The notes: generated by a model not told the origin, from the letters alone. A DNA stretch of 64,000 nt from Minisyncoccia bacterium (GCA_049997875.1 JBEKRC010000002.1:66755-130754); one strand, 5' to 3'. Shown: positions 28,457-44,973, counted from the stretch's first letter. Program-made: numbers and translations.

Positions 28457-29953
28457 TTAAGAAGCAAGTTTCTTGCGTGCGAGGGCGATCCGGCGAAGCG
28501 ATTCTTGCTTTCCCAACACCTCCATGATTTCCAAGGGATCAGGCGAGGCTCTCTGTCCGGAAACTGCCACGCGGAGAGGCCACAGCACCGCTCCCCTCTT
28601 CTCATCAATCGTCGTAATGGTGTTCGTGACGGCCGCCGATAACGTTTCGCGGTTGAATTCCTGCGCATTGATCTTTAAAAGCGCGTCGTCCATCGCCGCG
28701 AGTGCGGCATCTGTTTCCCTGACGGAGCTTTCTTTCCAGATCAAGAGTTCCTTTTCGTACTCCGGCAGGACAAGGAAAAAGCGGCCGAGCGTTACGAAGT
28801 CGCGGAGCGTGCTCGCGCGGTTGCGCTCCACATCAATGATTTTCATAAGGACATCTTCCTCGGGTTCGGAAAGGTCCTCGGATGCAAATGGCTTCAATGC
28901 ACGTATCTCGGCCGCGATCTTTTTATTGCTCATTTTCTTCAGGTGTTCGCGGTTCAGCCATTCCAGCTTTTCCGGATTGAACGCGGCGCCGGCTTGCTGC
29001 ACCCGCGCGAGGTCAAACTCCTTTATCAATTCCTTTCTTGAAAGCACTTCGCGGTTGTCTTTGGGATGCCAGCCGAGAAGGGCTAAAAAGTTGAAGAGTG
29101 CGTCCGGCAGGTACCCCTTCTCTCGATATTGCAAAAGCGCAGTGTCGGCGAAACGCTTTGACATCTTGCTGCGATCGGGATTCAGGATAAGCGGAATATG
29201 GGCATAGACGGGCTCCGCGAATCCGAGCGCGCGCTGCATGAGAATCTGCTTCGGGGTGTTTGACAGATGATCCTCCCCGCGGATCACATGACTGATCTTC
29301 ATAAGTTCGTCGTCCACCACGACCGCGAAATTATAGAGCGGATTCAGAAGATCCTTCGCGATCACGATGTCGCCGAAGAGCGAGGTATCAAATGCAACTT
29401 TTCCGCGGATAAGATCATTAAATTCCACGTTCGTTTCGGGAATTCTGAAACGGATCACCTCCGGGCTTTTTCCGGGCGGCGGCGCCTTCAGATTTCTGCA
29501 CCGCCCGTTGTATTTCGGCGGGAGTCCCTGCGCGAGCATCGCTTCGCGTTGCGCATCAAGCTCTTCTTTGGTGCAATAGCAGTAGTATGCTTCATCCTTG
29601 CCCAAAAGTTCCTGCAGATACTTTTTATAGATCGCGGTCCGCTCGCTTTGCCGGTAGGGACCGTACGGTCCTTTTTCGTCCGCCACCGGCAGCCGACCGC
29701 CGTCCGCAAGCGGTCCCTCATCCCAATCCAAGCCGAGCCACGCAAGGCCTTCCAGGATCTCGTCTTCGTATTTTTTCTCCGAGCGCTCCTTGTCCGTGTC
29801 TTCCACGCGCATCACGAACACTCCCCCGTGCCTGCGGGCGAAAAGCCAATTGAAAAGCGCCGTCCGCGCGGTCCCAATATGCAAAGGCCCCGTGGGGCTT
29901 GGCGCCATCCTCACGCGGACCGGCATGTCCTTTTCCTCCTTTGTTCCCGCCAT
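28457..29953 (-). CDS. gltX: Glutamyl-tRNA synthetase
   Basis: RMAPSPTGPLHIGTARTALFNWLFARRHGGVFVMRVEDTD; KMSKR. Confidence 0.95.
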   Translation of the reverse strand: MAGTKEEKDMPVRVRMAPSPTGPLHIGTARTALFNWLFARRHGGVFVMRVEDTDKERSEKKYEDEILEGLAWLGLDWDEGPLADGGRLPVADEKGPYGPYRQSERTAIYKKYLQELLGKDEAYYCYCTKEELDAQREAMLAQGLPPKYNGRCRNLKAPPPGKSPEVIRFRIPETNVEFNDLIRGKVAFDTSLFGDIVIAKDLLNPLYNFAVVVDDELMKISHVIRGEDHLSNTPKQILMQRALGFAEPVYAHIPLILNPDRSKMSKRFADTALLQYREKGYLPDALFNFLALLGWHPKDNREVLSRKELIKEFDLARVQQAGAAFNPEKLEWLNREHLKKMSNKKIAAEIRALKPFASEDLSEPEEDVLMKIIDVERNRASTLRDFVTLGRFFLVLPEYEKELLIWKESSVRETDAALAAMDDALLKINAQEFNRETLSAAVTNTITTIDEKRGAVLWPLRVAVSGQRASPDPLEIMEVLGKQESLRRIALARKKLAS

Positions 29954-30155
29954 GTCTCCCCTATTTTACCGCAAATTCTGGAGGACGACCACGATGCCTT
30001 TTCGGAACCCGCTCCAGCTCGGGCGCTCTCCTCGCTCGCTTACGAAAATTTGACACCCTCCGCGGCGAGCACGGGGGTCCCGTCAAATTTTCTGCTCACT
30101 CGGAGAACGCTAATTCCTCGCCTCCGCTCGGTTCCTCAAAGGCATCGTGGTCATC

Positions 30156-31880
30156 TTAAACGATCTCTGCTTGGTAGCACTGCTCGCAATAGACGATCTC
30201 AGGGCGGTCAGGAGCGTAGGAGGTTTCAAATTCGTTGGGGCACTTGCCTTTGTGAGTATGATTCTGTTTGTCGCACATGCAGGAACGATGCCACAGTTTG
30301 AGCGGATTCCTCTGTCTGATCCGGGCGTAATGGCGGCAGTTCGGACAAAGGGCGGGGACCGCAACGTCGAGCCGTTTGTACAGCTCAAGTTCCTCCCACG
30401 TCATGCGAAAAGCCTCCGTGCATTGCTCGTGGCATTGGCCCCCGTGAGCACACGCAAAAATTTCATTCAACAAGGAATTGTTCAGCTCCTTCACTCCGGC
30501 AGCTCTTTTGGTTGCGACGTAGTTCTTCTCTTCCGGCTCCCGCCAATCAAAGCCGAGCTTGGCGGCCCCACTTTTATCAAGCGTGAAATATTCCTGTGCC
30601 ACAGTCTCGTTATAGGCGAACGGAGAATGCTCTATCGGGAAGAACTCACCGTATTTATACTCACGCCCCACTCTGTCCCGAAATGAGACCTGCCCCATTT
30701 GTTTTTTGATCTTTCCGAGGAGAGCTTCGTATTCCTCTTTGGCGTACTGCTTGTTGAAGATGCAACAGTGCTTGTCCCGCAGCGCGATGCAACCAAACAG
30801 GTCGCTTGAGCCATGGCACATCTCGCAATATTCGAGGTGATGGTTGTCGTAGGAAATACTGGAAAACTTTGAGTAGCTCAGGCGGTTTCCCGCATGGCAT
30901 TCGTACTGCCGCTCGCAGTTGAACGCGGGCTCGTAGGCGTCGTAGCAGTCCTTCAGATTCGCTGCATCCGCACTGTAAGCGCTGTTCTCTGATTCGTATA
31001 CATGAAAGCCGTGCTTCACGTTCCTGCACTCGAACAGATAGTCACCGGTGGAGTCCACGATTTTGTTGAAGGTAGCGTACTTGCGGATGCTTTTCGCCAG
31101 CACTTCGCTCTCGAACTGTTTCTTCAGACGCTCGAGGGATTGGGAATCTTTGGTTTTGATGCCAGTAATCCTTTTCTCATACTCCTCCCTTGAAAGCTGC
31201 TGGCCCATAAAGACGCAGTTCTGGTTCCGCAAGTTGGCCGACATGAAGCAGTGCTGGCAGCCACGGCAGTCATAGAGAAAGGCGCAATCAATGCAGTCCG
31301 AGCAGAGGAATAGGAACTTGCTGCGCGAGCACTTGTCGCATTCGTTCAGTTCGTAGCAGAGCTCCGATTCAAATGCTCCGTAGCAATCCATCACGTCGCG
31401 ACACTTGATGACCCATTTACTGTAGAGCACGTTTTCGCTGAAGCCCGTGTCAACACACAGATAGCAGTCCTTTGGATGGTCGGTATGGTTGGTATACGGA
31501 CTGTTCACGGGATTCTTCTGGTACAGGGCGACTCGCGGGATTGCCAAACTTAGCTCATAAAACTGCTGGAAGAACGGTTTTGAAAAGTCGTACTCCTTGC
31601 CGTATTCAAAAGGGTCCCATTTATCGCTCCACCAACATGCGTTGCAGTACACCTTGAATTTGCTCCCTTTTGGGTACATGGAAATGATGTCTGCGTGGCA
31701 GAAGTCGCAGGAACGTTTGTAAAGGGTGCGCTCGTTGCGGCGGGCCATTTTGCGTTGTAGGCGGCAATCGGGACAAAACGTCGGCGGCGGGACATCTATT
31801 TCCTTGTAGAATGCGGAATCCTCCGGCTCAATTGTGAACTGGTTCTTGCAATTCTGACAAACGCGGATTTCTGGTCCCAT
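30156..31880 (-). CDS. Large cysteine-rich protein (574 aa, about 50 Cys) with N- and C-terminal zinc-ribbon CxxC pairs; unknown function
   Basis: CQNC-x20-CPDC, CDFCH-x15-CNAC at N-terminus; many CxxC/CxC pairs centrally (LCSDCIDCAFLYDCRGCQHCF); C-terminal CPNC...CMC...CEQC; lower GC than flanks. Confidence 0.7.
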   Translation of the reverse strand: MGPEIRVCQNCKNQFTIEPEDSAFYKEIDVPPPTFCPDCRLQRKMARRNERTLYKRSCDFCHADIISMYPKGSKFKVYCNACWWSDKWDPFEYGKEYDFSKPFFQQFYELSLAIPRVALYQKNPVNSPYTNHTDHPKDCYLCVDTGFSENVLYSKWVIKCRDVMDCYGAFESELCYELNECDKCSRSKFLFLCSDCIDCAFLYDCRGCQHCFMSANLRNQNCVFMGQQLSREEYEKRITGIKTKDSQSLERLKKQFESEVLAKSIRKYATFNKIVDSTGDYLFECRNVKHGFHVYESENSAYSADAANLKDCYDAYEPAFNCERQYECHAGNRLSYSKFSSISYDNHHLEYCEMCHGSSDLFGCIALRDKHCCIFNKQYAKEEYEALLGKIKKQMGQVSFRDRVGREYKYGEFFPIEHSPFAYNETVAQEYFTLDKSGAAKLGFDWREPEEKNYVATKRAAGVKELNNSLLNEIFACAHGGQCHEQCTEAFRMTWEELELYKRLDVAVPALCPNCRHYARIRQRNPLKLWHRSCMCDKQNHTHKGKCPNEFETSYAPDRPEIVYCEQCYQAEIV

Positions 31881-32050
31881 AGATCTTATTCTACCTCATT
31901 CGCCCAGATGCGACATTCACAACGCGCACGTGTTCATTTTGGTTACAAGGCGAATGACGCTGAACCCGTTGTCAGATGGTTCGTGACCGTGTATTATGAT
32001 GCTAGCGGTAAGTTAGTTGTCCCGCTATAGATGCCTGAAGGAGGTTACCG

Positions 32051-32242
32051 ATGGGAGACGTTAATCTAGAAGTACCTGACTTTACAAAACTCATGGAGGG
32101 CATACCCCCGGATGACTATGTGGTAGTTTCTGATGATAGCACGAGCGTGCTCGCTCACGGACCTATCTTTGAAGAGGTCATCGAGAAAGCCCCCAAGGGT
32201 TTCGTTATCCGCAACACGAGGCTACCTCTGGTTCTCGCGTGA
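32051..32242 (+). CDS. Small protein (63 aa) with strong RBS and own terminator
   Basis: AGGAGG at 32038-32043, ATG 32051; terminator 32264-32315; sequence VVVSDDSTSVLAHGPIFEEVIEKAPKGFVIRNTRLP. Confidence 0.55.
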   Translation: MGDVNLEVPDFTKLMEGIPPDDYVVVSDDSTSVLAHGPIFEEVIEKAPKGFVIRNTRLPLVLA

Positions 32243-32263
32243 ATGCGGGACGAGCAGGAAACT

Positions 32264-32315
32264 GGCGCGCAGGAGGTCAGCAATGATCGTTCTCCCTGCG
32301 CGCCTTTTCGTTTTG
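32264..32315 (+). terminator. Rho-independent terminator after the 63-aa gene
   Basis: GGCGCGCAGG-21nt-CCTGCGCGCC followed by TTTTCGTTTTG. Confidence 0.65.
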
Positions 32316-32384
32316 ATAATGTCTGCTCTGGCAGCTGGAGGATGTGAGAACCTACCTAAAAAAGTCTACTTTGGGCAACTCTCC

Positions 32385-33290
32385 TCACAAGCCCTCATCT
32401 GGATTGTCGGTTTCTGCTTTTAGGGCATCAGCAATATATGATTTATACCTAGACAAAACCTCCCTGACTTTCTGATTATTATCTTGATCGTCTCCTTGAG
32501 ATATTTTTATAAAATCAGGTAGCGTGGCCAACGCAACCATTTCTTCAACCGGTTTTCCATTAATCTCCTTAATTCCCGATTTTTGTAACTCTACCATCAA
32601 TTGAACCAGGGCCTCTTCCGTGCCGCAGACGATTTTCTTCACTTTTTCTATAGGGATACCAATCTTAAACATCTGCTCATTACCGTAGTTCCAAGATTTC
32701 TTTTGCGTTTCAAACAATTCTTCGGGGCTTACCCTGCCTCTAAAAGTGGTCGGGTCGGCGCCGCCATGTCGGTCCTCATTGAAAGAATACCAATCAAGCC
32801 TATCAACAATGTCCGGTTCAAACACCAAAGACACAACGCCGGGATCAACCTTCGTCTTAGAGTTAGCTAATCCTTCCGGTGTCACAATACGAGTGAAAGC
32901 GAATTCGGCGGCCCCTGTCTGTAAATCAATGTCAGAAGACAAACCCTTTGTCGTTAATTTTCTTCGCAGGCGTTCCTTGGTGGACAACAGACCTCCTTCT
33001 TTAATCATCTGCGATACGTCTTTCGGCTCATAGGTATGATGATAAATTGCAAAAGGGGTAATCTTTTGATACTCTCGGTACTTTCCCGGCTCTACAAAGG
33101 TGGAGTACCCAGGAAAGATTTCTTTTTTGTCTAAGCGCTTTTCAATACTCTCTGGCGCTTTGCTCATATAATGCCATCCATAGAGTGCTCTTTTTTCTTC
33201 CTCTTCCTTTTCTCGTCGTTCGCTCATCGCCCTTTGTTCGTCGGTCATCATCTCTTCAGCTTTTGTGATTTCCTCCTGCGATGGTTCCAT
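32385..33290 (-). CDS. Hypothetical protein (301 aa), low-GC gene, acidic N-terminus
   Basis: About 42% GC versus about 60% flanks; no family recognised. Confidence 0.5.
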   Translation of the reverse strand: MEPSQEEITKAEEMMTDEQRAMSERREKEEEEKRALYGWHYMSKAPESIEKRLDKKEIFPGYSTFVEPGKYREYQKITPFAIYHHTYEPKDVSQMIKEGGLLSTKERLRRKLTTKGLSSDIDLQTGAAEFAFTRIVTPEGLANSKTKVDPGVVSLVFEPDIVDRLDWYSFNEDRHGGADPTTFRGRVSPEELFETQKKSWNYGNEQMFKIGIPIEKVKKIVCGTEEALVQLMVELQKSGIKEINGKPVEEMVALATLPDFIKISQGDDQDNNQKVREVLSRYKSYIADALKAETDNPDEGL

Positions 33291-33304
33291 TGTATGTTGT
33301 GCTG

Positions 33305-34438
33305 TTATATCGCAAGCCGAAGCAATTCCTCCGCGATTTTTTCCGCTGCGTTGGGGAGGAAGAACTCACGTGCGGCGACACTCATCTTGGCGCGTAACTC
33401 CTGGTTGCCCAGAATCGCCTTCAGTTGCCCGAGAAAGATGCCTTCAAAGAGATTGGCTTCTTCTATCACGACCGCGCCGCCGCCCTTTGCGAATTCGTAC
33501 GCGTTTATTTTCTGATGGTCGTTGGCCGCATCGGCAAGCGGGATAAGGATCATGGGGATACCGAACGAGGCGACCTCGGCAATGGTATTGCTGCCGGCGC
33601 GCGAGACCACGAGATCGGCGGCGGCAAGCGCGAGCGAAAGGTCTTTCTCAAAATACCCCACGGCCTTGTAGCGATTTTGGAACGATTCGTCAATGAGCGC
33701 GGCGCGGGAGAGCCGCGCAACCTCCGGCAAATTCGCCGCGCCGGTTTGGTGAAACACCTGGGTCTCCTTTATAAGCGCGGCGATGCCTTCAAGAATGAAT
33801 TGATTGATCCGTTGTGAGCCCTGCGAACCGCCAAGAATGAGCGTAAGCGGACTCTGGGAATCAAAGCCAAGCGTTTCTTTTGTGGGTTCTTTCGCGGTTC
33901 TTCCTACGAGGAGTCCCTCCCGGATCGGCGTCCCCGTCACCTGCGTTTTCTGCGGATTGAAGTAAACGGCCGCGCTTGTGAAGCTCACGAACACTCTCCT
34001 CGCGAAACGCGCGGAAAAAAGATTGGTGAGACCCGGCTTCGCGTCGGATTCATGGATGGCGATGGGGATGCGATAAAACCAGCCGGCGACGACCACGGGC
34101 AAGGCACCTGTGCCGCCTTTTGAAAAAATGACGTCGGGCATAAGGAGGTACAGCTTGAAAAGCGCGTGGAGGAATCCGATAAAGAATTTGGGGATGTCAA
34201 CGAAGTTCGCTAATGATGCATACCGTCGGACCTTGCCGGCCACGATCGGCGAAAGCGTGACACCGCAGTCGGCGAAGAGCGGTTCGTATCCGTCCCGCGG
34301 ACCCACGCGGATCACCTCAAACGGCGCTCCGAGCTCGACGCACCGCTTTTTGAGCGCTTCAATCACCGCGATCGTGGGGTATACGTGTCCCCCGCTTCCC
34401 CCGCCCGCCACCACTACGCGAAAAGTTTCTTGCCTCAT
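33305..34438 (-). CDS. murG: Undecaprenyl-PP-MurNAc-pentapeptide-UDPGlcNAc GlcNAc transferase
   Basis: VVVAGGGSGGHVYPTIAVIEAL. Confidence 0.9.
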   Translation of the reverse strand: MRQETFRVVVAGGGSGGHVYPTIAVIEALKKRCVELGAPFEVIRVGPRDGYEPLFADCGVTLSPIVAGKVRRYASLANFVDIPKFFIGFLHALFKLYLLMPDVIFSKGGTGALPVVVAGWFYRIPIAIHESDAKPGLTNLFSARFARRVFVSFTSAAVYFNPQKTQVTGTPIREGLLVGRTAKEPTKETLGFDSQSPLTLILGGSQGSQRINQFILEGIAALIKETQVFHQTGAANLPEVARLSRAALIDESFQNRYKAVGYFEKDLSLALAAADLVVSRAGSNTIAEVASFGIPMILIPLADAANDHQKINAYEFAKGGGAVVIEEANLFEGIFLGQLKAILGNQELRAKMSVAAREFFLPNAAEKIAEELLRLAI

Positions 34439-34450
34439 TGTCTTCGTATG

Positions 34451-35560
34451 TTACGTATATTTTGACACATTGAGCGCGATCCCGCTCATGGTGAGAAAAA
34501 CCGCAAGTGCCGTGCCGCCGTAGCTTACGAATGGCAACGGAACCCCCGTGAGAGGAATGAGTCCGGAGGTCGCCGCCATATTCACGAATGCCTGGAGCGC
34601 GATCGCCGTTCCAAAGCCGATGAGGAGCAGTCGGCCGAAGCGATCGTTCGTCTTCTTCGCAAGCCAATAGAGGCGGGCGGCAAAGAGCGCAAAAAGCGCC
34701 ACAAGCGCGCCCGCGCCCACGAAACCGAGTTCCTCCGCCACCACGGCAAAAATGGAATCGTCAATCGGCGTTGGAAGATAGCTTGTTTTAGTTGCTGACT
34801 GCCCATAGCCCGCCCCCGTGAGCCCGCCCGAGCCAATGGCAATAAGCGATTGGTTCAGTTGATAATTCGCCCCTTGCGTATTCGCACTTTGGTCAAGGAA
34901 GCTAAGAATCCTCGTGCGGCGATACGGAGTGATATAGATCACGAGTCCGATAGCGACGACGGCGCAGAGTGCGATGAGAAGGATGTAACGTAGCGGCGCA
35001 CCGCTCATGAAGTACACCGCGAGTCCCGAGAAGAGAAGGATGGCGACCGTACTTGTCGCCGGTTGCAGGATGAGAAGTCCCGCGATAATGCCGGAGATGA
35101 TAAGAAACGGCAGAAGGCCCGCCTGAAAGTCGGTGGCACGCTTCAGTTTCGGATTAGAAAGCCAGGCCGCAAGGTAAATGATGAACGTAAGTTTCATGAG
35201 TTCCGCCGGTTGGAAGCTCAAAGGGCCGAGCCGGAGCCAACGGCTTGTATTGTTCGCTTGAAGGCCGAACGGCGTAAAGACGAGAACCAGCGCCGCCAAG
35301 CTCATGAGCAGTAAAATGAACGCCACTTTTTTCCAGTGCCCATAATATACGTAATACCCAACAAGAAATCCGACGATCCCGACCGATATGCCGTAGAGAA
35401 TCTGGTGCTTCAGGTAATAATAGGTGTCGTTGAACTGGGTTTTCCCGAGGTTGGACGAAGCGGACGCAAGCATGGCGAGTCCGAACACTACGAGGATGAC
35501 GATGATCGCGAAAAAAAAGTAATCCGGATTATGACCGCGCTTGCCGGAGCCGAGGATCAT
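34451..35560 (-). CDS. ftsW: SEDS-family peptidoglycan glycosyltransferase FtsW/RodA
   Basis: GQSATKTSYLPTPIDDSIFAVVAEELGFVGA...PLPFVSYGGTALAVFLTMSGIALNV; ATGA overlap with upstream gene stop. Confidence 0.85.
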   Translation of the reverse strand: MILGSGKRGHNPDYFFFAIIVILVVFGLAMLASASSNLGKTQFNDTYYYLKHQILYGISVGIVGFLVGYYVYYGHWKKVAFILLLMSLAALVLVFTPFGLQANNTSRWLRLGPLSFQPAELMKLTFIIYLAAWLSNPKLKRATDFQAGLLPFLIISGIIAGLLILQPATSTVAILLFSGLAVYFMSGAPLRYILLIALCAVVAIGLVIYITPYRRTRILSFLDQSANTQGANYQLNQSLIAIGSGGLTGAGYGQSATKTSYLPTPIDDSIFAVVAEELGFVGAGALVALFALFAARLYWLAKKTNDRFGRLLLIGFGTAIALQAFVNMAATSGLIPLTGVPLPFVSYGGTALAVFLTMSGIALNVSKYT

Positions 35561-37068
35561 GGTTTGTGGCGGAGCACTTTGCCCGCGAACATCTGCGCAC
35601 ATGCGCCATTATGCATCGCCACTTTGCCGTTCACTATGGTGAATTTGATCTCATCACTCTTGAAACACACAAGATCCGCAAAATTACCCTCCGTGACAGT
35701 TCCCCGGAGCGCAAGATCAAACTTTTTCGCCGGCGCCGCGGTAATCTTCGTGATTGCTTCTTCAAGCGGCATCAAATGTTCCTGTTCCACCATGGCCAAA
35801 AACTTGGTGAACGTGCTTGTGGTCCGCTCCGATTTCAACTGTCTGCCGGGCGCGGCGCTGTCGGTGAAGCTCGGGGCGTTGGAGGCGATAAAACTCCGCT
35901 TGGAGGCCATCGCGCGCTTTGTGAGATGGCTTGCAAGATTCCGGTAGAGCACGCCGCCCCGCATATTCATCGTCACCATGAGCCGGATGAGCGCGTCCCG
36001 CCCGTCGGTGAATCCATACATATGTTTCACTTCCTTTAACGATTTTCCCACCAAAAAGTCGTTGCCGGGCGCCTGCGCGATCACAAAATGCTCTTCGTCA
36101 AGGTGCGGCATGTCTTTGCGGATGCGCGCCGCGAGCCATTCGTCCTTTACGTTTGCGAGCATGACGTCCACGCCGCCGTTCTGCGCCCAAAGTGGAAGGA
36201 ACGTATAGATAGGCAAGAGTGAACTTGAAGAAGGATAAATATCAAAATGAAAGTCCATATCGTCCGGCAGGGCTTCTATCGCCGCGAGTGCGGTTTCATA
36301 CTCTTCTTCCGAACCGACGACGGGAACAAAATGGCTGACGAGGGTTTTTACGCCGGTTTCCTTTGCGAGGTTGATGGTTTCTTCTACCGAAGCTGCGATG
36401 CCTTTGCTCGGATTTCGCAAGTGCGTCGCATACACGCCATGAAATTTTTTTGCGATGCCTACAAGGGATTTAAGTTCCGCATAGGAGGTATTCCTCACAT
36501 GTACGTACGCAAGGCCGGTGGAAACCCCGAACGCGCCCTCCTCCAATGCCGCCGTGAGGGTCTGCGAAAAAACGTCCAATTCGTTTTTGGTGAGATCGCG
36601 CAAATCCTCTCCAAGGATCGCGCGACGGATCGTGGCGTGGCCTACGAGCGTCCCGAAATTTACACCAAGAGGTCGACGATCCAGTACCCTAAGAAACTCT
36701 CCCATTGCATGCCAATTGACGTTCACGCGGTTCGGATCGCCCCACTTGCTCACGGATTCCAGCGTGCCATAAAGGAGCGGCGCAAGCGATGAACCGCACA
36801 TGCCGCCCAGAATGGTCGTCACGCCCTGCTTCAAAAAATCCTCCTGCCCGGGATGCTCAAACAGCGTGAGATAATGGTCCGAATCGGTATTTACGTCAAT
36901 GAACCCGGGGCTCAAATACGCATCCTGGCCGTCCATGACTACATCAGCTTTTTTATTCGGAAAGTTGCCGATCGCCGAAATCTTGTCACCGCTTACGAAT
37001 ACATCGGATGAATCAGGAAACGGCCGGCTTCCACCCAAAATCCGCACGTTCTTGATGAGAAGCGTCAT
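35557..37068 (-). CDS. Amidohydrolase-family protein (D-aminoacylase-like)
   Basis: LIKNVRILGG...VSGDKISAIG...DAYLSPGFIDVNTDSDHY; canonical HxH replaced by NTD. Confidence 0.7.
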   Translation of the reverse strand: MTLLIKNVRILGGSRPFPDSSDVFVSGDKISAIGNFPNKKADVVMDGQDAYLSPGFIDVNTDSDHYLTLFEHPGQEDFLKQGVTTILGGMCGSSLAPLLYGTLESVSKWGDPNRVNVNWHAMGEFLRVLDRRPLGVNFGTLVGHATIRRAILGEDLRDLTKNELDVFSQTLTAALEEGAFGVSTGLAYVHVRNTSYAELKSLVGIAKKFHGVYATHLRNPSKGIAASVEETINLAKETGVKTLVSHFVPVVGSEEEYETALAAIEALPDDMDFHFDIYPSSSSLLPIYTFLPLWAQNGGVDVMLANVKDEWLAARIRKDMPHLDEEHFVIAQAPGNDFLVGKSLKEVKHMYGFTDGRDALIRLMVTMNMRGGVLYRNLASHLTKRAMASKRSFIASNAPSFTDSAAPGRQLKSERTTSTFTKFLAMVEQEHLMPLEEAITKITAAPAKKFDLALRGTVTEGNFADLVCFKSDEIKFTIVNGKVAMHNGACAQMFAGKVLRHKP

Positions 37069-41387: not shown

Positions 41388-41421
41388 AGGGCTGGTCCGC
41401 CGGAGGCGGCGTTACGTTCCC

Positions 41422-42717
41422 CTACGCGCTATCCCAATCCACCTTCAAAAAGTGCGCCGCGCAGCTCATGCATGGGTCGTAGGCGCGGATAAGTTTTTCT
41501 ATTTCAAGCTCAATTTTCTCTTTCGGCGTGTCGGGCAGAAGTCCCTGCACGAGCGTCGCGATATCGCGTTCAATATTTACCTGGTTCTGTCCCGTGGGCA
41601 CAACCACCTCGCCCTCCTTCACCAATCCGTCAGCGCCCACGGATATCTTATGATACAGCGTGCCCCGCGGCGCTTCCACGACGCCTACGCCCGTTGCTTC
41701 GCGGTTCGGCGCCTTTACGACGGGCTCCGGAACGAATTTGCTGGTGCGCAAAATATCCATTGATTCGTCAATAGAGTGCAGGATCTCCACCGCCTGCGCG
41801 AGGTTGTTGTAGAAGATGTCCGTGGACGGGAAAAGCGTGAGAAGTTCGCCAAGCGATTCCCTTGTCTTCGGATGCAATTTATCCTTCGCGAGGTTAAGCC
41901 GCGCCAAGGCGCCCACCATGTAGCCCTCGTTGCCATAGACGTAGGCAGACGCTTGCGAATACGGGAGAACGACGTGCTCAAGGTGCGTGCGAAACTCCGC
42001 TTTTTGATAATGTTCTCCCCTGCTCGTCATGATCGTCCCGTTCAGGTAGCCATAGTTGCCGTTGGGCACAAGCGCCATGAACTGCGTTTTCCGGTCAAAA
42101 TGGAACGGTGCATTCCTGAAAATATCTATGAGCCGGAGCGCTGCGGGGCGGACGGATTCCAATTTTTTGATCGCCTCCGCGATCCCCTGCGCGTCCGGAA
42201 ATTTGAGAAACCCGCCGATCGTAGGATACATCGCATGGACGCTTCTCCCGGCCACGAGCGTCGCCAAAAAGTTGCCGGCGGCCTTCATGTCAAAGCCGTC
42301 GTGCAATAATTGATGCTCCGCCTCCACGTTTTCGTCAAAATCCAAAAATGCGTCTTTTCCATAAATGTCCGGCAACGAGAAAAGATACAGATGGAGGGCG
42401 TGGTCGCGGATCATGAGGCCGTGCATCGTGAGCGCGCGGAGCGCCTTCGTTTGCGCCGTGGGTTCAATGCCCAACGCATCCTCGCATGCCTCAATGCTGC
42501 ACATGAGGTGCGCATTGGAGCAGGTGCCGCAGATCCTCGCCAGATGCTGCGGGATGGCCACGATTGCCTTCCCTTTCATCGCCTCGGTGAAGAAGCGCTT
42601 GTATTCCAGCGTTTTGAATTTCACGTCGGTCACCTTCCCCTCTTCCACGTGCAACGAAAGCCCGGCGTTGCCTTCTATCTTCGTGATGCCGTCCATCGTA
42701 AGGTCAAAAGTATGCAT
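41422..42717 (-). CDS. [NiFe]-hydrogenase large subunit (group 3/4-like)
   Basis: N-terminal RICGTCSNAH (RxCGxCxxxH) and C-terminal DPCMSCAAH (DPCxxCxxH) followed by short cleavable tail FLKVDWDSA. Confidence 0.9.
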   Translation of the reverse strand: MHTFDLTMDGITKIEGNAGLSLHVEEGKVTDVKFKTLEYKRFFTEAMKGKAIVAIPQHLARICGTCSNAHLMCSIEACEDALGIEPTAQTKALRALTMHGLMIRDHALHLYLFSLPDIYGKDAFLDFDENVEAEHQLLHDGFDMKAAGNFLATLVAGRSVHAMYPTIGGFLKFPDAQGIAEAIKKLESVRPAALRLIDIFRNAPFHFDRKTQFMALVPNGNYGYLNGTIMTSRGEHYQKAEFRTHLEHVVLPYSQASAYVYGNEGYMVGALARLNLAKDKLHPKTRESLGELLTLFPSTDIFYNNLAQAVEILHSIDESMDILRTSKFVPEPVVKAPNREATGVGVVEAPRGTLYHKISVGADGLVKEGEVVVPTGQNQVNIERDIATLVQGLLPDTPKEKIELEIEKLIRAYDPCMSCAAHFLKVDWDSA

Positions 42718-42729
42718 GGGATTATGAGA

Positions 42730-43215
42730 TCATTTTACGCCCAGTTCGGCTGCGACACTACCCAGTACTTTAAGGAAGTTTGCCGGATCCATCGGGCAGC
42801 CGGGCACCTCGGCATCAACCGTGACCACGTCGGCAACCTTGAGCACTTTGGGCAGCGCCCCGAACCGCGCAACCAAGAATTCAATCGCCTCCTTTTGCGC
42901 ATCGGTGAAAGCGTTGCGCTGACCCGCAGGCAGGCCTATGACGGCGCAGGCGCCCACCGCGACGAGCTTCTTTGAACGGCTGCGGATGTCCTTCAGTTTT
43001 TCTTCCTGCTCCGGCGAGGCGATCGCGCCCTCAATGAAAGAGATGTCAAACTCGTCCATGGAGTTTTTGGATTGCAGGACGCGCGCGTGCCGAAAATCAA
43101 ATTTCTTCTTCCAGTCGGCCCAGTGGTCGTTCATGATCTCCGTCATCACAATCGTATTGTCCTCGCAGCAGGAGAAAGAGAACCAGCCGATTTTCAACTT
43201 TTCCCCGTCCGTCAT
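42730..43215 (-). CDS. [NiFe]-hydrogenase small subunit, minimal NuoB-like (161 aa)
   Basis: WFSFSCCEDN, GACAVIGLPAG, VPGCPMDP Cys motifs; only proximal cluster ligands. Confidence 0.8.
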   Translation of the reverse strand: MTDGEKLKIGWFSFSCCEDNTIVMTEIMNDHWADWKKKFDFRHARVLQSKNSMDEFDISFIEGAIASPEQEEKLKDIRSRSKKLVAVGACAVIGLPAGQRNAFTDAQKEAIEFLVARFGALPKVLKVADVVTVDAEVPGCPMDPANFLKVLGSVAAELGVK

Positions 43216-43251
43216 GCCTTCATTGTATCATGAACGTGTTATAATTTTCGT

Positions 43252-44973
43252 ATGTCAGCACCTTCTCATGAGGACGTTTTCTCGGTTGGCATTGGCGGCG
43301 CGGCGGGCGAGGGAGTACGGGAGGCAGGGGCAAGCTTGGCGCAGCTTCTTACCGACCTTGGCTTTGAGGTTTTCGTCGGTTTTGATTATCCGTCGCTCAT
43401 CCGCGGCGGGCACAATTTCAGCCGCGTGAGCTTCTCCGGTGAAAAGGTACACTGCGATCATTCGCCGCTCACCATACTTATTGCGCTTGATGAGGAAACC
43501 TTGCGGATCCACAAAGACGAACTGAACAAAGACGCCGTCATTCTTGCCGACACGTTTGAAAAGGAATACGCGGAGCGCTTCGGCGCGAACGCCGTCACGT
43601 TGCCCATGAAGGAATTTGCCCAAAAGCTCGGCGCGCCGCCAATCACCCGCACCTCCGTCGCGCTTGGGGCCGCTTGCTATCTCCTCGGTGTCGCGCCGGA
43701 TGTCATGGCCGCGATCTTGAAAAAGATTTTTCAGGGAAGAAGTTTGGATGCCAATCTGGAACTTGCCACGGCCGGATACGAACACCTTGCGAAGCTTGGC
43801 TTCCGGCAGCAGGAAAGATTGGCGCCGCATGGCGCCGCAGGCGCAACGGAACTTCTTGACGGAAACACGGCGCTCGGCAGGGGCTTTGTGGCGGCGGGAA
43901 TGGATATTTATTTCAGCTACCCAATGACGCCTTCATCCAGCATTCTCCACTTTCTCGCCAAGCAGCAGAAGGAATACAAGATAAAAGTGATCCAGCCGGA
44001 GAACGAGCTTGCGGTGGTGCACATGGCGCTCGGTGCCGCGTATGCCGGCAAGCGCGCCGCCGTGGGCACCGCGACCGGCGGCTTCGCGCTGATGCAGGAG
44101 GCGTTCAGCTTGGCGGGCATGGCCGAACTGCCGATCGCTTTTGTCGTTTCACAACGCTACGCTCCCGCAACCGGCGGCCCCACGTACACGAGCCAGGGCG
44201 ATCTCACGTTCATACTTCACTCGGGTCATGGCGAGTTTCCACGGATCGTGCTCGCGCCCGGCGATCCGCAAGAAGCCTTCGCCTGCGGCGCGGATGCGCT
44301 CAACCTCGCATGGAAATATCAAGTGCCGACTATCGTCGTTCTTGACCGTGAGCTTTCGGAAAGCTTGGAGACCGTTCCCGCGCTTGATCCCCAATCAATC
44401 AAAATTGAACGGGGCAAAATTCTGGAAAAGCCGTCGGAGAATTACGGCCGATATCAAATCACCGATGACGGCGTTTCACCGATGGTCTTCCCTGGCGCAC
44501 CGGGTGCGGTCGTAAAAGCGAGCAGTTATGAACATGGCGAGGGGGGCATGACAACCGAGGAGGCCGGAGCGATCAAAAAGATGAATGACAAGCGCTTTGC
44601 GAAGGCGCAAGGAATCGCGAACGAATTGAAAAGCCATGAGGCCGCCAAAGTGTACGGCGACAAGGATAGCTCCAATGTGATCGTGTTCTGGGGCTCCACG
44701 AAGGGTGCTGTGCTTGAGGCGGCGAAATATCTTACAGAGCCGGCGAAGCTTTTGCAGATCGTTTGGATGGACCCATTTGACGCCGAGAAGGTCGCGGTGG
44801 AACTCGCCGGCGCAAAAACGATCGTTGACGTAGAAGCCAATCGCACGGCGCAGCTCGCCTCGCTTATCCGCGAAAAGACCGGCCTCACGATAGACAAAAA
44901 GATTTTGCGGTATGACGCGCGGCCATTTGATCCGCTGGAATTGACAGAAAAAATAAACGCACTACTCACATAA
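43252..44973 (+). CDS. 2-oxoacid:ferredoxin oxidoreductase alpha subunit with fused gamma domain
   Basis: N-terminal GIGGAAGEG gamma-like domain, then POR/KOR alpha domains; 573 aa. Confidence 0.9.
   Translation: MSAPSHEDVFSVGIGGAAGEGVREAGASLAQLLTDLGFEVFVGFDYPSLIRGGHNFSRVSFSGEKVHCDHSPLTILIALDEETLRIHKDELNKDAVILADTFEKEYAERFGANAVTLPMKEFAQKLGAPPITRTSVALGAACYLLGVAPDVMAAILKKIFQGRSLDANLELATAGYEHLAKLGFRQQERLAPHGAAGATELLDGNTALGRGFVAAGMDIYFSYPMTPSSSILHFLAKQQKEYKIKVIQPENELAVVHMALGAAYAGKRAAVGTATGGFALMQEAFSLAGMAELPIAFVVSQRYAPATGGPTYTSQGDLTFILHSGHGEFPRIVLAPGDPQEAFACGADALNLAWKYQVPTIVVLDRELSESLETVPALDPQSIKIERGKILEKPSENYGRYQITDDGVSPMVFPGAPGAVVKASSYEHGEGGMTTEEAGAIKKMNDKRFAKAQGIANELKSHEAAKVYGDKDSSNVIVFWGSTKGAVLEAAKYLTEPAKLLQIVWMDPFDAEKVAVELAGAKTIVDVEANRTAQLASLIREKTGLTIDKKILRYDARPFDPLELTEKINALLT

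What the first reader, a model, noticed from the sequence alone, without database searches (positions are those of the whole stretch)
30156..33300. Lower-GC islet encoding a 574-aa, about 50-cysteine zinc-ribbon protein, a 63-aa protein with its own RBS and terminator, and a 42%-GC 301-aa unknown protein
The 574-aa protein has about 8-9% Cys. These are arranged as terminal zinc ribbons (CQNC...CPDC; CPNC...CMC...CEQC) and a central forest of CxxC/CxC pairs (DCYLC, CRDVMDC, CYELNECDKC, CSDCIDCAFLYDCRGCQHC, CEMCHG...CIALRDKHCC). It is also aromatic-rich, which is very atypical for a bacterial cytoplasmic protein and unlike radical-SAM or ferredoxin spacing. GC of the three genes (about 50%, about 45%, about 42%) is below the flanking about 60%, arguing for horizontal acquisition. 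The small protein (VVVSDDSTSVLAHGPIFEEVIEKAPKGFVIRNTRLP) resembles small archaeal/bacterial DUF-type proteins of antitoxin-like size. The module could be a novel metal-binding or redox, or a toxin-immunity-like accessory system.
Basis: partly seen in the sequence, partly recalled or inferred. Interest (0 to 1): 0.6.

Follow-up and report, generated by a model that had tools for sequence, protein, structure and literature searches.

The report
Uncharacterised multi-zinc protein family of Patescibacteria
The cysteine-rich gene is not a foreign islet but a native copy of a very large, undescribed protein family confined to the tiny-celled Patescibacteria, often found in rows of up to 16 old copies. 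The low-GC 301-aa gene beside it is an unrelated stripped-down piece of a probable ADP-ribosylation effector module.

Summary
The three ORFs exist as described, but the numbers are off and they are not one module.

**574-aa protein**
- It has 41 Cys (7.1%), not about 50.
- Its GC3 of 0.68 equals its neighbours', so it is compositionally native.
- It belongs to a family of more than 7,400 sequence clusters, all named as Patescibacteria, with no match above threshold in Pfam, NCBIfam or PADLOC and none in PDB.
- Architecture: a double zinc-ribbon module at each end (the two are homologous), two homologous beta-solenoid-like central modules, and a conserved aromatic segment.
- About 25 Cys are conserved. 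Most of the "central forest" is Cys/Ser-interchangeable.
- Paralogs are ancient (about 44% identity) and form same-strand arrays of up to at least 16 genes.
- Family members often sit directly after a soluble VirD4-like ATPase, though none is present in this window.
- This genome has at least three copies.

**301-aa protein**
- It is compositionally foreign (GC3 z = −2.6).
- It is a bare copy of a domain that normally sits inside 500-1,100-aa proteins.
- Those proteins are followed by a conserved ~120-aa partner (67 of 75 loci) and often an ADP-ribosylglycohydrolase (31 of 83 loci).
- The same domain ends a phage Mu F-like head protein, so it is probably an ADP-ribosyltransferase-type effector.

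**63-aa ORF**
- It has a promoter-like site, a Shine-Dalgarno sequence and a strong terminator, but no relatives.

The function of the Cys-rich family remains inferred.

The parts
30156..31880 (-). Cys-rich 574-aa gene, a member of a large Patescibacteria-only family
   Evidence: ORF. 41 Cys. More than 7,492 homolog clusters, full length, 45-81% identity, none with a Pfam domain. At least 582 genomic hits, the 80 listed all in Patescibacteria. AF2 pLDDT 81, pTM 0.85. No TM segment.
31596..31880 (-). N-terminal double zinc-ribbon module (residues 1-95): C8/C11/C36/C39 and C58/C61/C79/C82
   Evidence: Cys 82-100% conserved. Sub-threshold zf_Tbcl PF13451 match, E 2e-4, 21.7 bits against a cut-off of 24. 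Homologous to the C-terminal module, hhalign probability 98.9%, E 2.6e-17. BFVD Foldseek hits only phage 'zinc-ribbon domain' proteins.
31155..31514 (-). Central module A (residues 123-242), beta-solenoid-like repeats ending in conserved C196/C205/C208/C211
   Evidence: hhalign A against B: probability 99.8%, E 7.6e-28. Variable among paralogs. All 40 Foldseek PDB hits are statistically insignificant but are left-handed beta-helix proteins. Weak phrog_15341 match on residues 137-222.
30705..31064 (-). Central module B (residues 273-392), duplicate of module A, with conserved C355/C364/C373
   Evidence: (runs of short strands in the model)
30471..30686 (-). Conserved aromatic/acidic segment (residues 399-470), motif YGEFFPxExSPFAYNETxAQEYFP. 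Residues 361-435 are among the best-conserved stretches of the family.
   Evidence: Invariant G411 F413 F414 P415 Y423 N424 E425. Low entropy.
30159..30470 (-). C-terminal zinc module (residues 471-574): C477/H479/C483/C487, C512/C515, C534/C547/C565/C568
   Evidence: 97-100% conserved. Homologous to the N-terminal module.
29985..30155 (-). Long near-perfect hairpin directly after the stop codon of the Cys-rich gene and before gltX
   Evidence: MFE -108.7 kcal/mol, z -10.15. Inverted-repeat arms. Unique in the window and fetched loci.
32051..32242 (+). 63-aa ORF with no relatives
   Evidence: ORF. Only itself among 5.8 billion proteins. Called by gene finders on all contigs. SD GGAGG at 32040-32044.
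31969..31997 (+). Promoter-like site upstream of the 63-aa ORF (TTGTCA-17-TATTAT)
   Evidence: consensus match only
32264..32314 (+). Intrinsic-terminator-like hairpin plus U-run after the 63-aa ORF
   Evidence: dG -27.5 kcal/mol, z -3.17
32385..33290 (-). Low-GC 301-aa gene, a bare copy of a candidate ADP-ribosyltransferase-type effector domain (domain is roughly residues 26-280, nt 32451-33215)
   Evidence: GC3 0.449, z -2.63. 850 HMMER relatives, mostly 500-1,100 aa. Partner gene follows in 67 of 75 loci and an ARH is present in 31 of 83. Homologous to the C-terminus of the phage Pan1 Mu F-like protein, E 4.5e-20. Weak DarT hits.
63962..64000 (-). Last 13 codons of a second family paralog that runs off the window
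   Evidence: tblastn 84.6% identity to residues 562-574. Two tandem 592-aa paralogs lie just beyond the window end.

Best explanation
The interval holds three unrelated things.

**(1) The 574-aa gene**
- Shown: it is a vertically inherited member of a very large protein family that was found only in Patescibacteria.
- Shown: its build is a double CxxC zinc-ribbon module at each end (the two are homologs), two homologous central modules of about 120 residues, and a highly conserved aromatic/acidic segment before the C-terminal module.
- Inferred: the central modules are beta-solenoid-like.
- Inferred: about 25 conserved Cys/His form roughly 5-7 structural zinc sites. The remaining central Cys sit at small-residue positions where relatives mostly have Ser, consistent with a packing rather than a metal or redox role.
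- Inferred: the protein is a soluble cytoplasmic binding or adaptor protein. The conserved zinc-ribbon ends and the aromatic segment would provide a common function.
- Inferred: the more variable central surfaces would give each ancient paralog its own target.
- Shown for the family, not for this copy: members are often encoded directly after a TM-less VirD4/TraG-like ATPase.
- Inferred: family members may therefore work with that ATPase.

**(2) The 301-aa gene**
- Shown: it is a compositionally foreign, domain-only copy of a domain normally embedded in large proteins. Those proteins are followed by a fixed ~120-aa partner and often by an ADP-ribosylglycohydrolase.
- Shown: the same domain forms the C-terminus of a phage Mu F-like head protein.
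- Inferred: it is an NAD-using ADP-ribosyltransferase-type effector domain, present here without its usual partners.

**(3) The 63-aa ORF**
- Shown: it has expression signals but no relatives.
- Its status as a gene is open.
For: **Family size and range**
-.

**No membership in any curated family or solved structure**
-.

**Internal duplications**
- E 2.6e-17 for the terminal modules and E 7.6e-28 for the central modules.

**Conserved against non-conserved Cys**
-.

**Structure models**
-.
- Every weak Foldseek hit of the central model is a left-handed beta-helix protein.

**Native composition**
-.

**Same-genome paralogs with equally lowish GC**
- 48-52% GC.

**Shared ftsW-murG-gltX neighbourhood in L083, without the 301-aa and 63-aa genes**
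-.

**Arrays and ancient paralogy**
- Arrays of 9-12 genes per 22-kb locus.
- Median identity to the best same-locus paralog is 44%, against 60% to the best member in another locus. For 94% of members the closest relative is in another genome.
- The termini are conserved and the centre is variable.

**ATPase adjacency**
- 20 of 44 ATPases are immediately followed by a family member, against 70 of 796 other genes. Odds ratio 8.6, P 1e-9.
- ATPase identity.
- PMC12102498 reports 5,713 VirD4-like homologues in Patescibacteria, of which only 148 lie near virB4.

**301-aa gene**
-.
- Literature on Mu F-fused effectors and ADP-ribosyltransferases (PMC9503650).
Against: **Cys-rich family**
- No direct evidence of metal binding.
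- The beta-solenoid reading rests on repeat patterns, a medium-confidence model (pLDDT 60-73 in module A) and non-significant Foldseek hits.
- The ATPase link is statistical, is not corrected for phylogeny, and comes from loci chosen to contain family members.
- The ATPase link is weak for the subgroup of this very gene: 1 of 35 members.
- No such ATPase occurs in the roughly 84 kb of this genome that I examined.

**301-aa gene**
- Similarity to DarT is below threshold everywhere. The best is E 2.3e-4, in 5 of 32 members.
- A profile search of PDB found no ADP-ribosyltransferase.
- This copy differs from the family at several near-invariant positions (K111 for G, A127 for G, L165 for T). It may be decaying.
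Confidence: 0.6

Rival explanations
1. One reading: the three genes form one horizontally acquired accessory islet, either a metal/redox system or a toxin-immunity system.
For: The three genes are adjacent. GC is somewhat below the flanks. The 301-aa gene is truly low in GC. Its family lies in conflict-type contexts.
Against: - The Cys-rich gene has native GC3.
- It has paralogs in the same genome.
- Family members lie in the same neighbourhood in L083 without the other two genes.
- Contexts of the closest homologs share nothing with this one.
- There is no tRNA, integrase or flanking direct repeat.
- The 63-aa protein is not homologous to the family's partner.
Confidence: 0.04
2. The Cys-rich family are enzymes, not adaptors. 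An active site would be built from invariant polar residues (D165, N376, N424-E425, H479) on a beta-helix scaffold, as in hexapeptide-repeat transferases. The paralogs would differ in substrate.
For: Strictly invariant polar and aromatic residues in the 361-435 region. Only beta-helix enzymes appear among the weak fold hits. Ancient, individually conserved paralogs suit substrate-specialised enzymes.
Against: There is no hexapeptide motif. No Pfam or PDB sequence similarity was found. Foldseek E-values are at least 0.7 with TM-scores of at most 0.14.
Confidence: 0.15
3. The family are nucleic-acid-binding proteins, for example handling incoming or transferred DNA or RNA. They would use the basic helices that follow each zinc knuckle, together with FtsK/VirD4-type translocases and the competence machinery.
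For: - Conserved Arg-rich stretch after the second CxxC in both modules: CRxQRRMxxRNER and CRHYxRLxQRNP.
- The N-terminal module has pI 8.4.
- The VirD4-like ATPase is a neighbour.
- The two other paralogs of this genome sit directly before comEC.
Against: Overall pI is 6.4 and the central modules are acidic. ComEC adjacency was seen in this genome only (in L083 comEC lies three genes upstream of the array). There is no similarity to known DNA-binding zinc fingers beyond generic ribbons.
Confidence: 0.2
4. The family act in protein quality control, as zinc-dependent holdases or co-chaperones, together with DnaK, DnaJ and GrpE.
For: In about 10 Nomurabacteria-type loci, family genes are interleaved with grpE, dnaK and dnaJ.
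Against: The arrangement is confined to one lineage and so may be inherited synteny. No DnaJ-type CxxCxGxG motif is present. It is not the context in this window.
Confidence: 0.08
5. The 301-aa gene is a non-functional remnant of a mobile-element effector gene, and the 63-aa ORF is not a real gene.
For: - The gene lacks the N-terminal region, the partner and the ARH that accompany the domain elsewhere.
- It carries substitutions at near-invariant positions.
- The 63-aa ORF has no relatives.
Against: The ORF is intact, and the nine columns invariant across the 32-sequence family alignment (E106, G126, F132, R164, D166, G176, R186, E205, G211) are all retained. It lies 14 nt after murG and so is probably co-transcribed. 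The 63-aa ORF has an SD, a promoter-like site and a strong terminator.
Confidence: 0.3

Closest known systems
Pfam zf_Tbcl (PF13451) and zf_Tbcl_2 (PF23477), probable treble-clef zinc domains
   Same: Both terminal modules start with CxxC ... F.I..E..FY ... P..CPxCR. 22 of 40 family members give weak zf_Tbcl hits and 5 of 40 give zf_Tbcl_2 hits. Foldseek aligns the module to phage 'zinc-ribbon domain' proteins at rmsd 0.4 A over 44 columns.
   Different: All hits are below Pfam's gathering score. These models cover about 45 of 574 residues. The second ribbon, the central modules and the aromatic segment have no model.
Left-handed beta-helix (hexapeptide-repeat) proteins such as GlmU, LpxA, LpxD and gamma-carbonic anhydrase
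   Same: They are the only class among the 40 Foldseek PDB hits of the central model. The central modules show a repeat pattern with small residues (Cys, Ser) at recurring positions.
   Different: No hit is significant (E at least 0.7, TM at most 0.14). There is no hexapeptide motif and no Pfam Hexapep hit. Zinc-ribbon caps are absent from those enzymes.
Type IV coupling proteins (VirD4/TraG) and their substrates or adaptors
   Same: Family genes lie directly downstream of a VirD4/TraG-like P-loop ATPase far more often than other genes do.
   Different: The ATPase lacks the N-terminal membrane anchor. Most such ATPases in Patescibacteria are not next to a T4SS (PMC12102498). No interaction has been shown, and there is no ATPase in this window.
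DarT and other ADP-ribosyltransferase effectors, including those fused to phage Mu F head proteins ('polyvalent proteins')
   Same: For the 301-aa gene only.
- Recurrent weak DarT hits over the region holding N204-E205.
- An ARH is a neighbour in 31 of 83 loci.
- The domain forms the C-terminus of a Mu F-like protein in phage Pan1.
- ADP-ribosyltransferases are the commonest modifying enzymes in such proteins (PMC9503650).
   Different: No hit reaches a family threshold. No macrodomain antitoxin (DarG) is present. The conserved partner is an unrelated ~120-aa protein with no Pfam match. The window copy has neither partner nor ARH.

Membership tests
zf_Tbcl treble-clef zinc domain (PF13451) | Two CxxC pairs about 25 residues apart, with the conserved F/Y and P-x-x-C-x-x-C-R context | tested here: met
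   C8xxC11 and C36xxC39 are 100% conserved. The C-terminal counterpart is C483xxxC487 and C512xxC515.
zf_Tbcl treble-clef zinc domain (PF13451) | Score at or above Pfam's gathering threshold | tested here: not met
   21.7 bits against a cut-off of 24. The best E among 40 members is 2e-4.
Left-handed beta-helix hexapeptide transferases | Tandem [LIV]-[GAED]-x2-[STAV]-x hexapeptides and significant fold or sequence similarity | tested here: not met
   No hexapeptide run. No Pfam hit. Foldseek E at least 0.7.
Radical SAM or ferredoxin-type Fe-S proteins | CxxxCxxC or CxxCxxCxxxC cluster motifs | tested here: not met
   No such motif. No Pfam hit.
DnaJ-type zinc finger | Repeated CxxCxGxG | tested here: not met
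   No match.
Horizontally acquired genomic islet (as a three-gene unit) | Composition deviating from the host genome | tested here: not met
   The Cys-rich gene has GC3 z +0.59. Only the 301-aa gene deviates (z -2.63). The 63-aa ORF is at z -1.46.
Horizontally acquired genomic islet (as a three-gene unit) | Absent from related genomes, with mobility hallmarks (tRNA, integrase, flanking repeats) | tested here: not met
   Family genes are present in the same neighbourhood in L083, whereas the 301-aa and 63-aa genes are absent there. No tRNA or direct repeats flank the interval.
DarT / ADP-ribosyltransferase superfamily (301-aa gene) | Significant match to an ADP-ribosyltransferase family model, or an ADP-ribosyltransferase fold | tested here: inconclusive
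   DarT PF14487 hits are only sub-threshold: 5 of 32 members, best E 2.3e-4, plus P0129. PADLOC DarT matches 1 of 32. The PDB profile search found nothing.
DarT / ADP-ribosyltransferase superfamily (301-aa gene) | Genomic coupling to an enzyme that removes ADP-ribose | tested here: inconclusive
   Met for the family: ARH PF03747 (226 bits) in 31 of 83 loci. Not met in this window.
Two-gene effector-partner module of the 301-aa family | Homologous ~120-aa gene immediately downstream on the same strand | tested here: not met
   Present in 67 of 75 family loci and in 2 of 2 viral contigs. Absent from the window. The 63-aa ORF scores 0.0 bits, and 80 of 2,000 shuffles score as well.

The most novel reading that the evidence does not exclude
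The Cys-rich proteins could be the missing partners of the thousands of 'orphan', membrane-anchor-less VirD4-like ATPases of Patescibacteria. Together they would form a previously unrecognised ATPase-driven cytoplasmic system. A set of ancient zinc-ribbon-capped beta-solenoid paralogs would each present a different cargo or target (protein or nucleic acid) to the motor. Such a system could be central to the symbiotic lifestyle of these bacteria.
Probability: 0.2. Interest if true: 0.8.

Novelty: categorically new. Interest (0 to 1): 0.6.

Why it matters
Patescibacteria make up a large share of bacterial diversity, yet most of their lineage-specific genes have no assigned function. Here is a family of thousands of members that can fill about 29 kb with at least 16 tandem genes in one assembled genome of a phylum known for very small genomes. 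Its fold combination has no counterpart in the PDB sequence and Foldseek searches run here. Its genomic link to VirD4-like ATPases gives an experimental handle on those ATPases, whose role in these bacteria is itself unexplained.

Separately, the 301-aa gene exposes an undescribed three-gene ADP-ribosylation-type module: an effector domain, a ~120-aa partner and an ARH. This module is shared between these bacteria and phages.

For genome annotation, the result also shows that a lowish-GC, Cys-rich gene need not be foreign. Its amino-acid composition explains the GC.

Tried and rejected
- **Curated family and structure searches of all three proteins** gave nothing above threshold: Pfam, NCBIfam, PHROGs, PADLOC and PDB sequences. 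The only faint signal was phrog_15341 on residues 137-222.
- **Foldseek** of the full model against PDB and BFVD gave only local zinc-ribbon hits.
- **Rfam** on 29900-33400 gave nothing.
- **Phage (INPHARED) and IMG/VR searches** for the Cys-rich family gave nothing.
- **The 63-aa protein as a diverged copy of the ~120-aa partner** was rejected. An apparent YVVVSDDSTSVL / YYVSSPEDDTVL resemblance fell to 0.0 bits against a 70-sequence profile, and 80 of 2,000 shuffles scored as well.
- **The 301-aa protein as an orphan** was suggested by the word-indexed search and overturned by the exhaustive HMMER search.
- **Population variation to test coding constraint** was not usable, because the ten contigs aligned (of 22 carrying the gene) are at least 99.98% identical.
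- **Specific pairing between ATPase and family subgroups** was not seen.
- **Literature searches** for this family found no description.
- **Orthology of this gene with the L083 copy** was not supported. Identity is only 43%, so my 'subfamily 1' grouping is coarse.


Full report
**1. What is in the sequence**

They lie between gltX (28457-29953, -) and murG-ftsW (33305-35602, -).

The numbers need correcting.
- The 574-aa protein has 41 Cys (7.1%) and 13.6% F+W+Y.
- GC is 51.7%, 50.5% and 43.7% for the three genes. The window mean is 54.3% and the flanking genes are at 55-57%.
- At third codon positions the Cys-rich gene (0.676) cannot be told apart from gltX, murG and ftsW. It lies at z +0.59 among 49 window genes.
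- The 301-aa gene is the second most deviant gene of the window (GC3 0.449, z -2.63). The 63-aa ORF is marginal (z -1.46).
- No tRNA, flanking direct repeat or integrase marks an island.

**2. The Cys-rich protein belongs to a huge, unannotated family found only in Patescibacteria**

A search of 5.8 billion proteins returned more than 7,492 clusters with E at most 1e-3, capped by the candidate limit.
- The 120 clusters listed cover 88-100% of the query at 44-81% identity.
- Every one is 'hypothetical' and none has a precomputed Pfam domain.
- The names given by the sources are Jorgensen-, Brenner-, Lipton- and Pacebacteria, Paceibacterota and Patescibacteria group.

A scan of one genome per GTDB species gave at least 582 confirmed hits. 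The 80 listed are all Patescibacteria.

Other libraries gave nothing.
- Pfam, NCBIfam and PADLOC give nothing above threshold, and PDB sequence searches with a single sequence or a profile return nothing.
- The only recurring signal is a sub-threshold match of residues 6-47 to the 'probable treble clef' model zf_Tbcl.
- No member was found in 50,697 phage genomes or in IMG/VR.
- I found no paper describing the family.
- Méheust et al. (bioRxiv 10.1101/335083) note only that Parcubacteria-enriched families are 'primarily hypothetical proteins'.

**3. Architecture**

Alignment of 40 members and profile-profile comparison of parts of it show two internal duplications.
- Residues 9-85 are homologous to residues 485-571 (probability 98.9%, E 2.6e-17).
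- Residues 123-242 are homologous to residues 273-392 (probability 99.8%, E 7.6e-28).

Each terminal module carries two Cys4-type sites.
- N-terminal module: C8/C11/C36/C39, and C58/C61/C79/C82.
- C-terminal module: C483/C487/C512/C515, and C534/C547/C565/C568, with C477/H479 in addition.
- These residues are 82-100% conserved.
- An Arg-rich helix follows the second CxxC in both modules.

The central modules differ in how their Cys are conserved.
- Only C196/C205/C208/C211 and C355/C364/C373 are conserved (90-97%).
- The other twelve central Cys of this protein are under 45% conserved, and the commonest substitute is Ser.
- The 'forest of CxxC' is therefore mostly a set of small-residue positions, not a metal cluster.
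- No radical-SAM, ferredoxin, DnaJ or hexapeptide motif is present.

Structure prediction and fold searches:
- AlphaFold2 gives pLDDT 81 and pTM 0.85 for the whole chain, with 64-73 in the centre.
- It gives pLDDT 79 for the centre alone with a 119-sequence alignment. That model shows runs of 4-5-residue strands.
- Foldseek finds no PDB relative of the whole model.
- For the central model, all 40 hits are non-significant (E 0.7-10, TM at most 0.14), yet every one is a left-handed beta-helix protein.
- I take this as support for 'solenoid-like' and not for homology.

The segment YGEFFPxExSPFAYNETxAQEYFP (within residues 361-435) is the best conserved part apart from the extreme C-terminus (residues 556-574). 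There is no TM segment or signal peptide. I could not inspect zinc-site geometry because model coordinates are not exposed.

**4. Genomic behaviour of the family**

In the 94 fetched loci, 56 hold two or more members, always on one strand and often overlapping by a few bases.
- Copy numbers reach 9 (L012, L015), 10 (L030) and 12 (L060) per roughly 22 kb.
- Two overlapping loci of one contig add up to at least 16 genes in 29 kb.

The paralogs are old.
- The median best identity within a locus is 44% (maximum 58%), against 60% to a member in another locus.
- For 94% of members the closest relative is in another genome.
- At least seven recurrent subgroups exist.
- The termini and residues 361-435 are conserved, and the central modules vary most.

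The genome of the window has at least three copies.
- Its last 39 bases encode the C-terminus of a second member.
- Two tandem 592-aa genes lie just beyond the window, between trmD and comEC.
- They are 43-45% identical to the 574-aa protein and to each other, with GC of 51.8% and 48.2%.
- The slightly low GC is therefore a property of the family's K/N/Y/F/C-rich composition, not a sign of transfer.

A Liptonbacteria contig (L083) shows the same gene order: trmD-comEC-lactamase_B-amidohydrolase-ftsW-[four family genes]-241 aa-murG-gltX-M23 peptidase-murC.
- Family genes are thus long-term residents of this neighbourhood.
- murG and gltX there are 128 nt apart, with no counterpart of the 301-aa or 63-aa genes.
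- The L083 copies are only 36-43% identical to this gene, so I do not claim one-to-one orthology.

**5. Neighbours of the family**

Contexts of the three closest homologs differ completely, so there is no fixed operon partner.

Across loci, the commonest neighbour is a ~511-aa P-loop ATPase. It is present in 30 of 84 loci and matches T4SS-DNA_transf and HerA/DUF87 above threshold (TrwB_AAD_bind falls just below its cut-off).
- It lacks an N-terminal hydrophobic anchor.
- 20 of 44 such ATPases are immediately followed on the same strand by a family gene, against 70 of 796 other genes. The odds ratio is 8.6 and P is 1e-9, not corrected for phylogeny.
- A published survey counted 5,713 VirD4-like homologues in 2,918 Patescibacteria genomes, of which only 148 are near virB4 (PMC12102498). 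The role of these ATPases is open.

Other neighbours:
- CutA1 recurs in 8 loci.
- In Nomurabacteria-type loci the family is interleaved with grpE, dnaK, dnaJ and a PaaX-like gene.

Caveats on the ATPase link:
- No ATPase subgroup pairs with a particular family subgroup.
- The coarse subgroup containing this gene is rarely next to the ATPase: 1 of 35.
- No such ATPase lies in the roughly 84 kb of this genome that I could read.

**6. Most likely mechanism of the family (inferred)**

I read it as a soluble, multi-zinc, pseudo-symmetric binding protein.
- The two homologous zinc-ribbon modules and the aromatic segment provide a function common to all members.
- The more variable solenoid-like modules give each ancient paralog its own specificity.
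- A working relationship with the soluble VirD4-like ATPase is the best lead. I give it about 0.2.
- Enzyme, nucleic-acid-binding and chaperone readings are not excluded.

**7. The 301-aa gene**

The word-indexed search found only the protein itself. An exhaustive HMMER search of 1.84 billion representatives found 850 relatives, 94 of them with E at most 1e-30.
- Residues ~26-280 align at 30-46% identity to an internal or C-terminal domain of proteins mostly 500-1,100 aa long.
- The named members are hypothetical proteins, e.g. of Terrybacteria.

In 83 loci with relatives:
- The domain protein has a median ORF length of 698 aa. All examples under 350 aa are cut by contig ends.
- In 67 of 75 loci with enough downstream sequence, a homologous ~120-aa protein without any Pfam match follows on the same strand.
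- An ADP-ribosylglycohydrolase (PF03747, 226 bits) lies nearby in 31 of 83 loci, usually next after the partner on the opposite strand.
- A CdiA_C-like small protein recurs in 7 loci.
- Two IMG/VR viral contigs carry the domain protein together with the partner.

Links to phage and to ADP-ribosyltransferases:
- The family profile matches residues 759-918 of the 927-aa Mu F-like head protein of Pseudanabaena phage Pan1 (E 4.5e-20).
- Mu F is a known carrier of head-packaged effector domains, among which ADP-ribosyltransferases are the most common modifying enzymes (PMC9503650).
- Weak DarT matches recur in 5 of 32 aligned members plus P0129, best E 2.3e-4; the one with reported coordinates (P0129) covers the stretch with the invariant N204-E205.
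- The motif IYH...L..II..GGLLS near H84 resembles the N-terminal NAD-binding motif of DarT-like enzymes. That resemblance is from my memory and is a lead only.

I conclude the domain is probably an ADP-ribosyltransferase-type effector (about 0.55).

The window copy is atypical.
- It is domain-only and starts 14 nt after murG.
- It has no partner and no ARH anywhere in the window.
- It is low in GC.
- It carries substitutions at several near-invariant positions while keeping the invariant ones.
- It is identical in 22 contigs from several samples.

**8. The 63-aa ORF**

- It has no relative.
- It has no match above threshold in any of the four protein-family libraries.
- There is no significant Rfam match in the region (one sub-threshold hit at E 0.16).
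- It does have a promoter-like site, an SD and a strong terminator.
- It is not a homolog of the ~120-aa partner.
- Whether it is a real gene remains open.

**9. Verdict**

The 'islet/module' interpretation is wrong for the Cys-rich gene and plausible only for the 301-aa gene. The Cys-rich gene is an ordinary, native instance of a family that is itself remarkable and, as far as I could find, undescribed.

Noticed in passing
window 29985-30155 (- strand): The spacer between the stop codon of the Cys-rich gene and gltX folds into one ~170-nt near-perfect hairpin (MFE -108.7 kcal/mol, z -10.15). No U-run follows it and it has no Rfam match. It is unique in the window and in all fetched loci. It could be a processing or stability element or a gltX leader.
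   Followed up: partly
window 63962-64000 (-), and L095 5606-9172: A second family member runs off the window end. Just beyond lie two tandem 592-aa paralogs between trmD and comEC.
   Followed up: yes
window 49592-50446 (+): This is the lowest-GC gene of the window (284 aa, GC 0.40, GC3 0.43) and another candidate foreign gene.
   Followed up: no
L025, L027, L047, L051, L052, L075, L077, L084, L086, L092: In Nomurabacteria-type genomes, family genes and VirD4-like ATPase genes are interleaved with grpE, dnaK, dnaJ and a divergent PaaX-like gene.
   Followed up: partly
L019 + L060 (contig JALLOO010000001.1, bases 1-28967): At least 16 same-strand family paralogs fill the first 29 kb of a contig of Patescibacteria bacterium AH-259-L05.
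   Followed up: partly
L097-L181 (loci of the 301-aa family): An undescribed recurrent gene trio: a large protein with the 301-aa-type domain, a ~120-aa partner without a Pfam match, and a convergent ADP-ribosylglycohydrolase. A CdiA_C-like small protein is present in 7 loci, and a protein combining a sub-threshold sigma-70 region 4 match with an RNAP alpha-CTD domain lies upstream in 12.
   Followed up: partly
L083 (Liptonbacteria, MHLB01000057.1): This contig conserves the gene order trmD-comEC-lactamase_B-amidohydrolase-ftsW-[family x4]-murG-gltX-M23-murC. The window's genome has the same genes split over two loci.
   Followed up: yes
window about 41400-43300 (from L001 76-1869): NiFe-hydrogenase small and large subunit genes lie next to a pyruvate:ferredoxin oxidoreductase gene, about 8 kb from the finding.
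   Followed up: no
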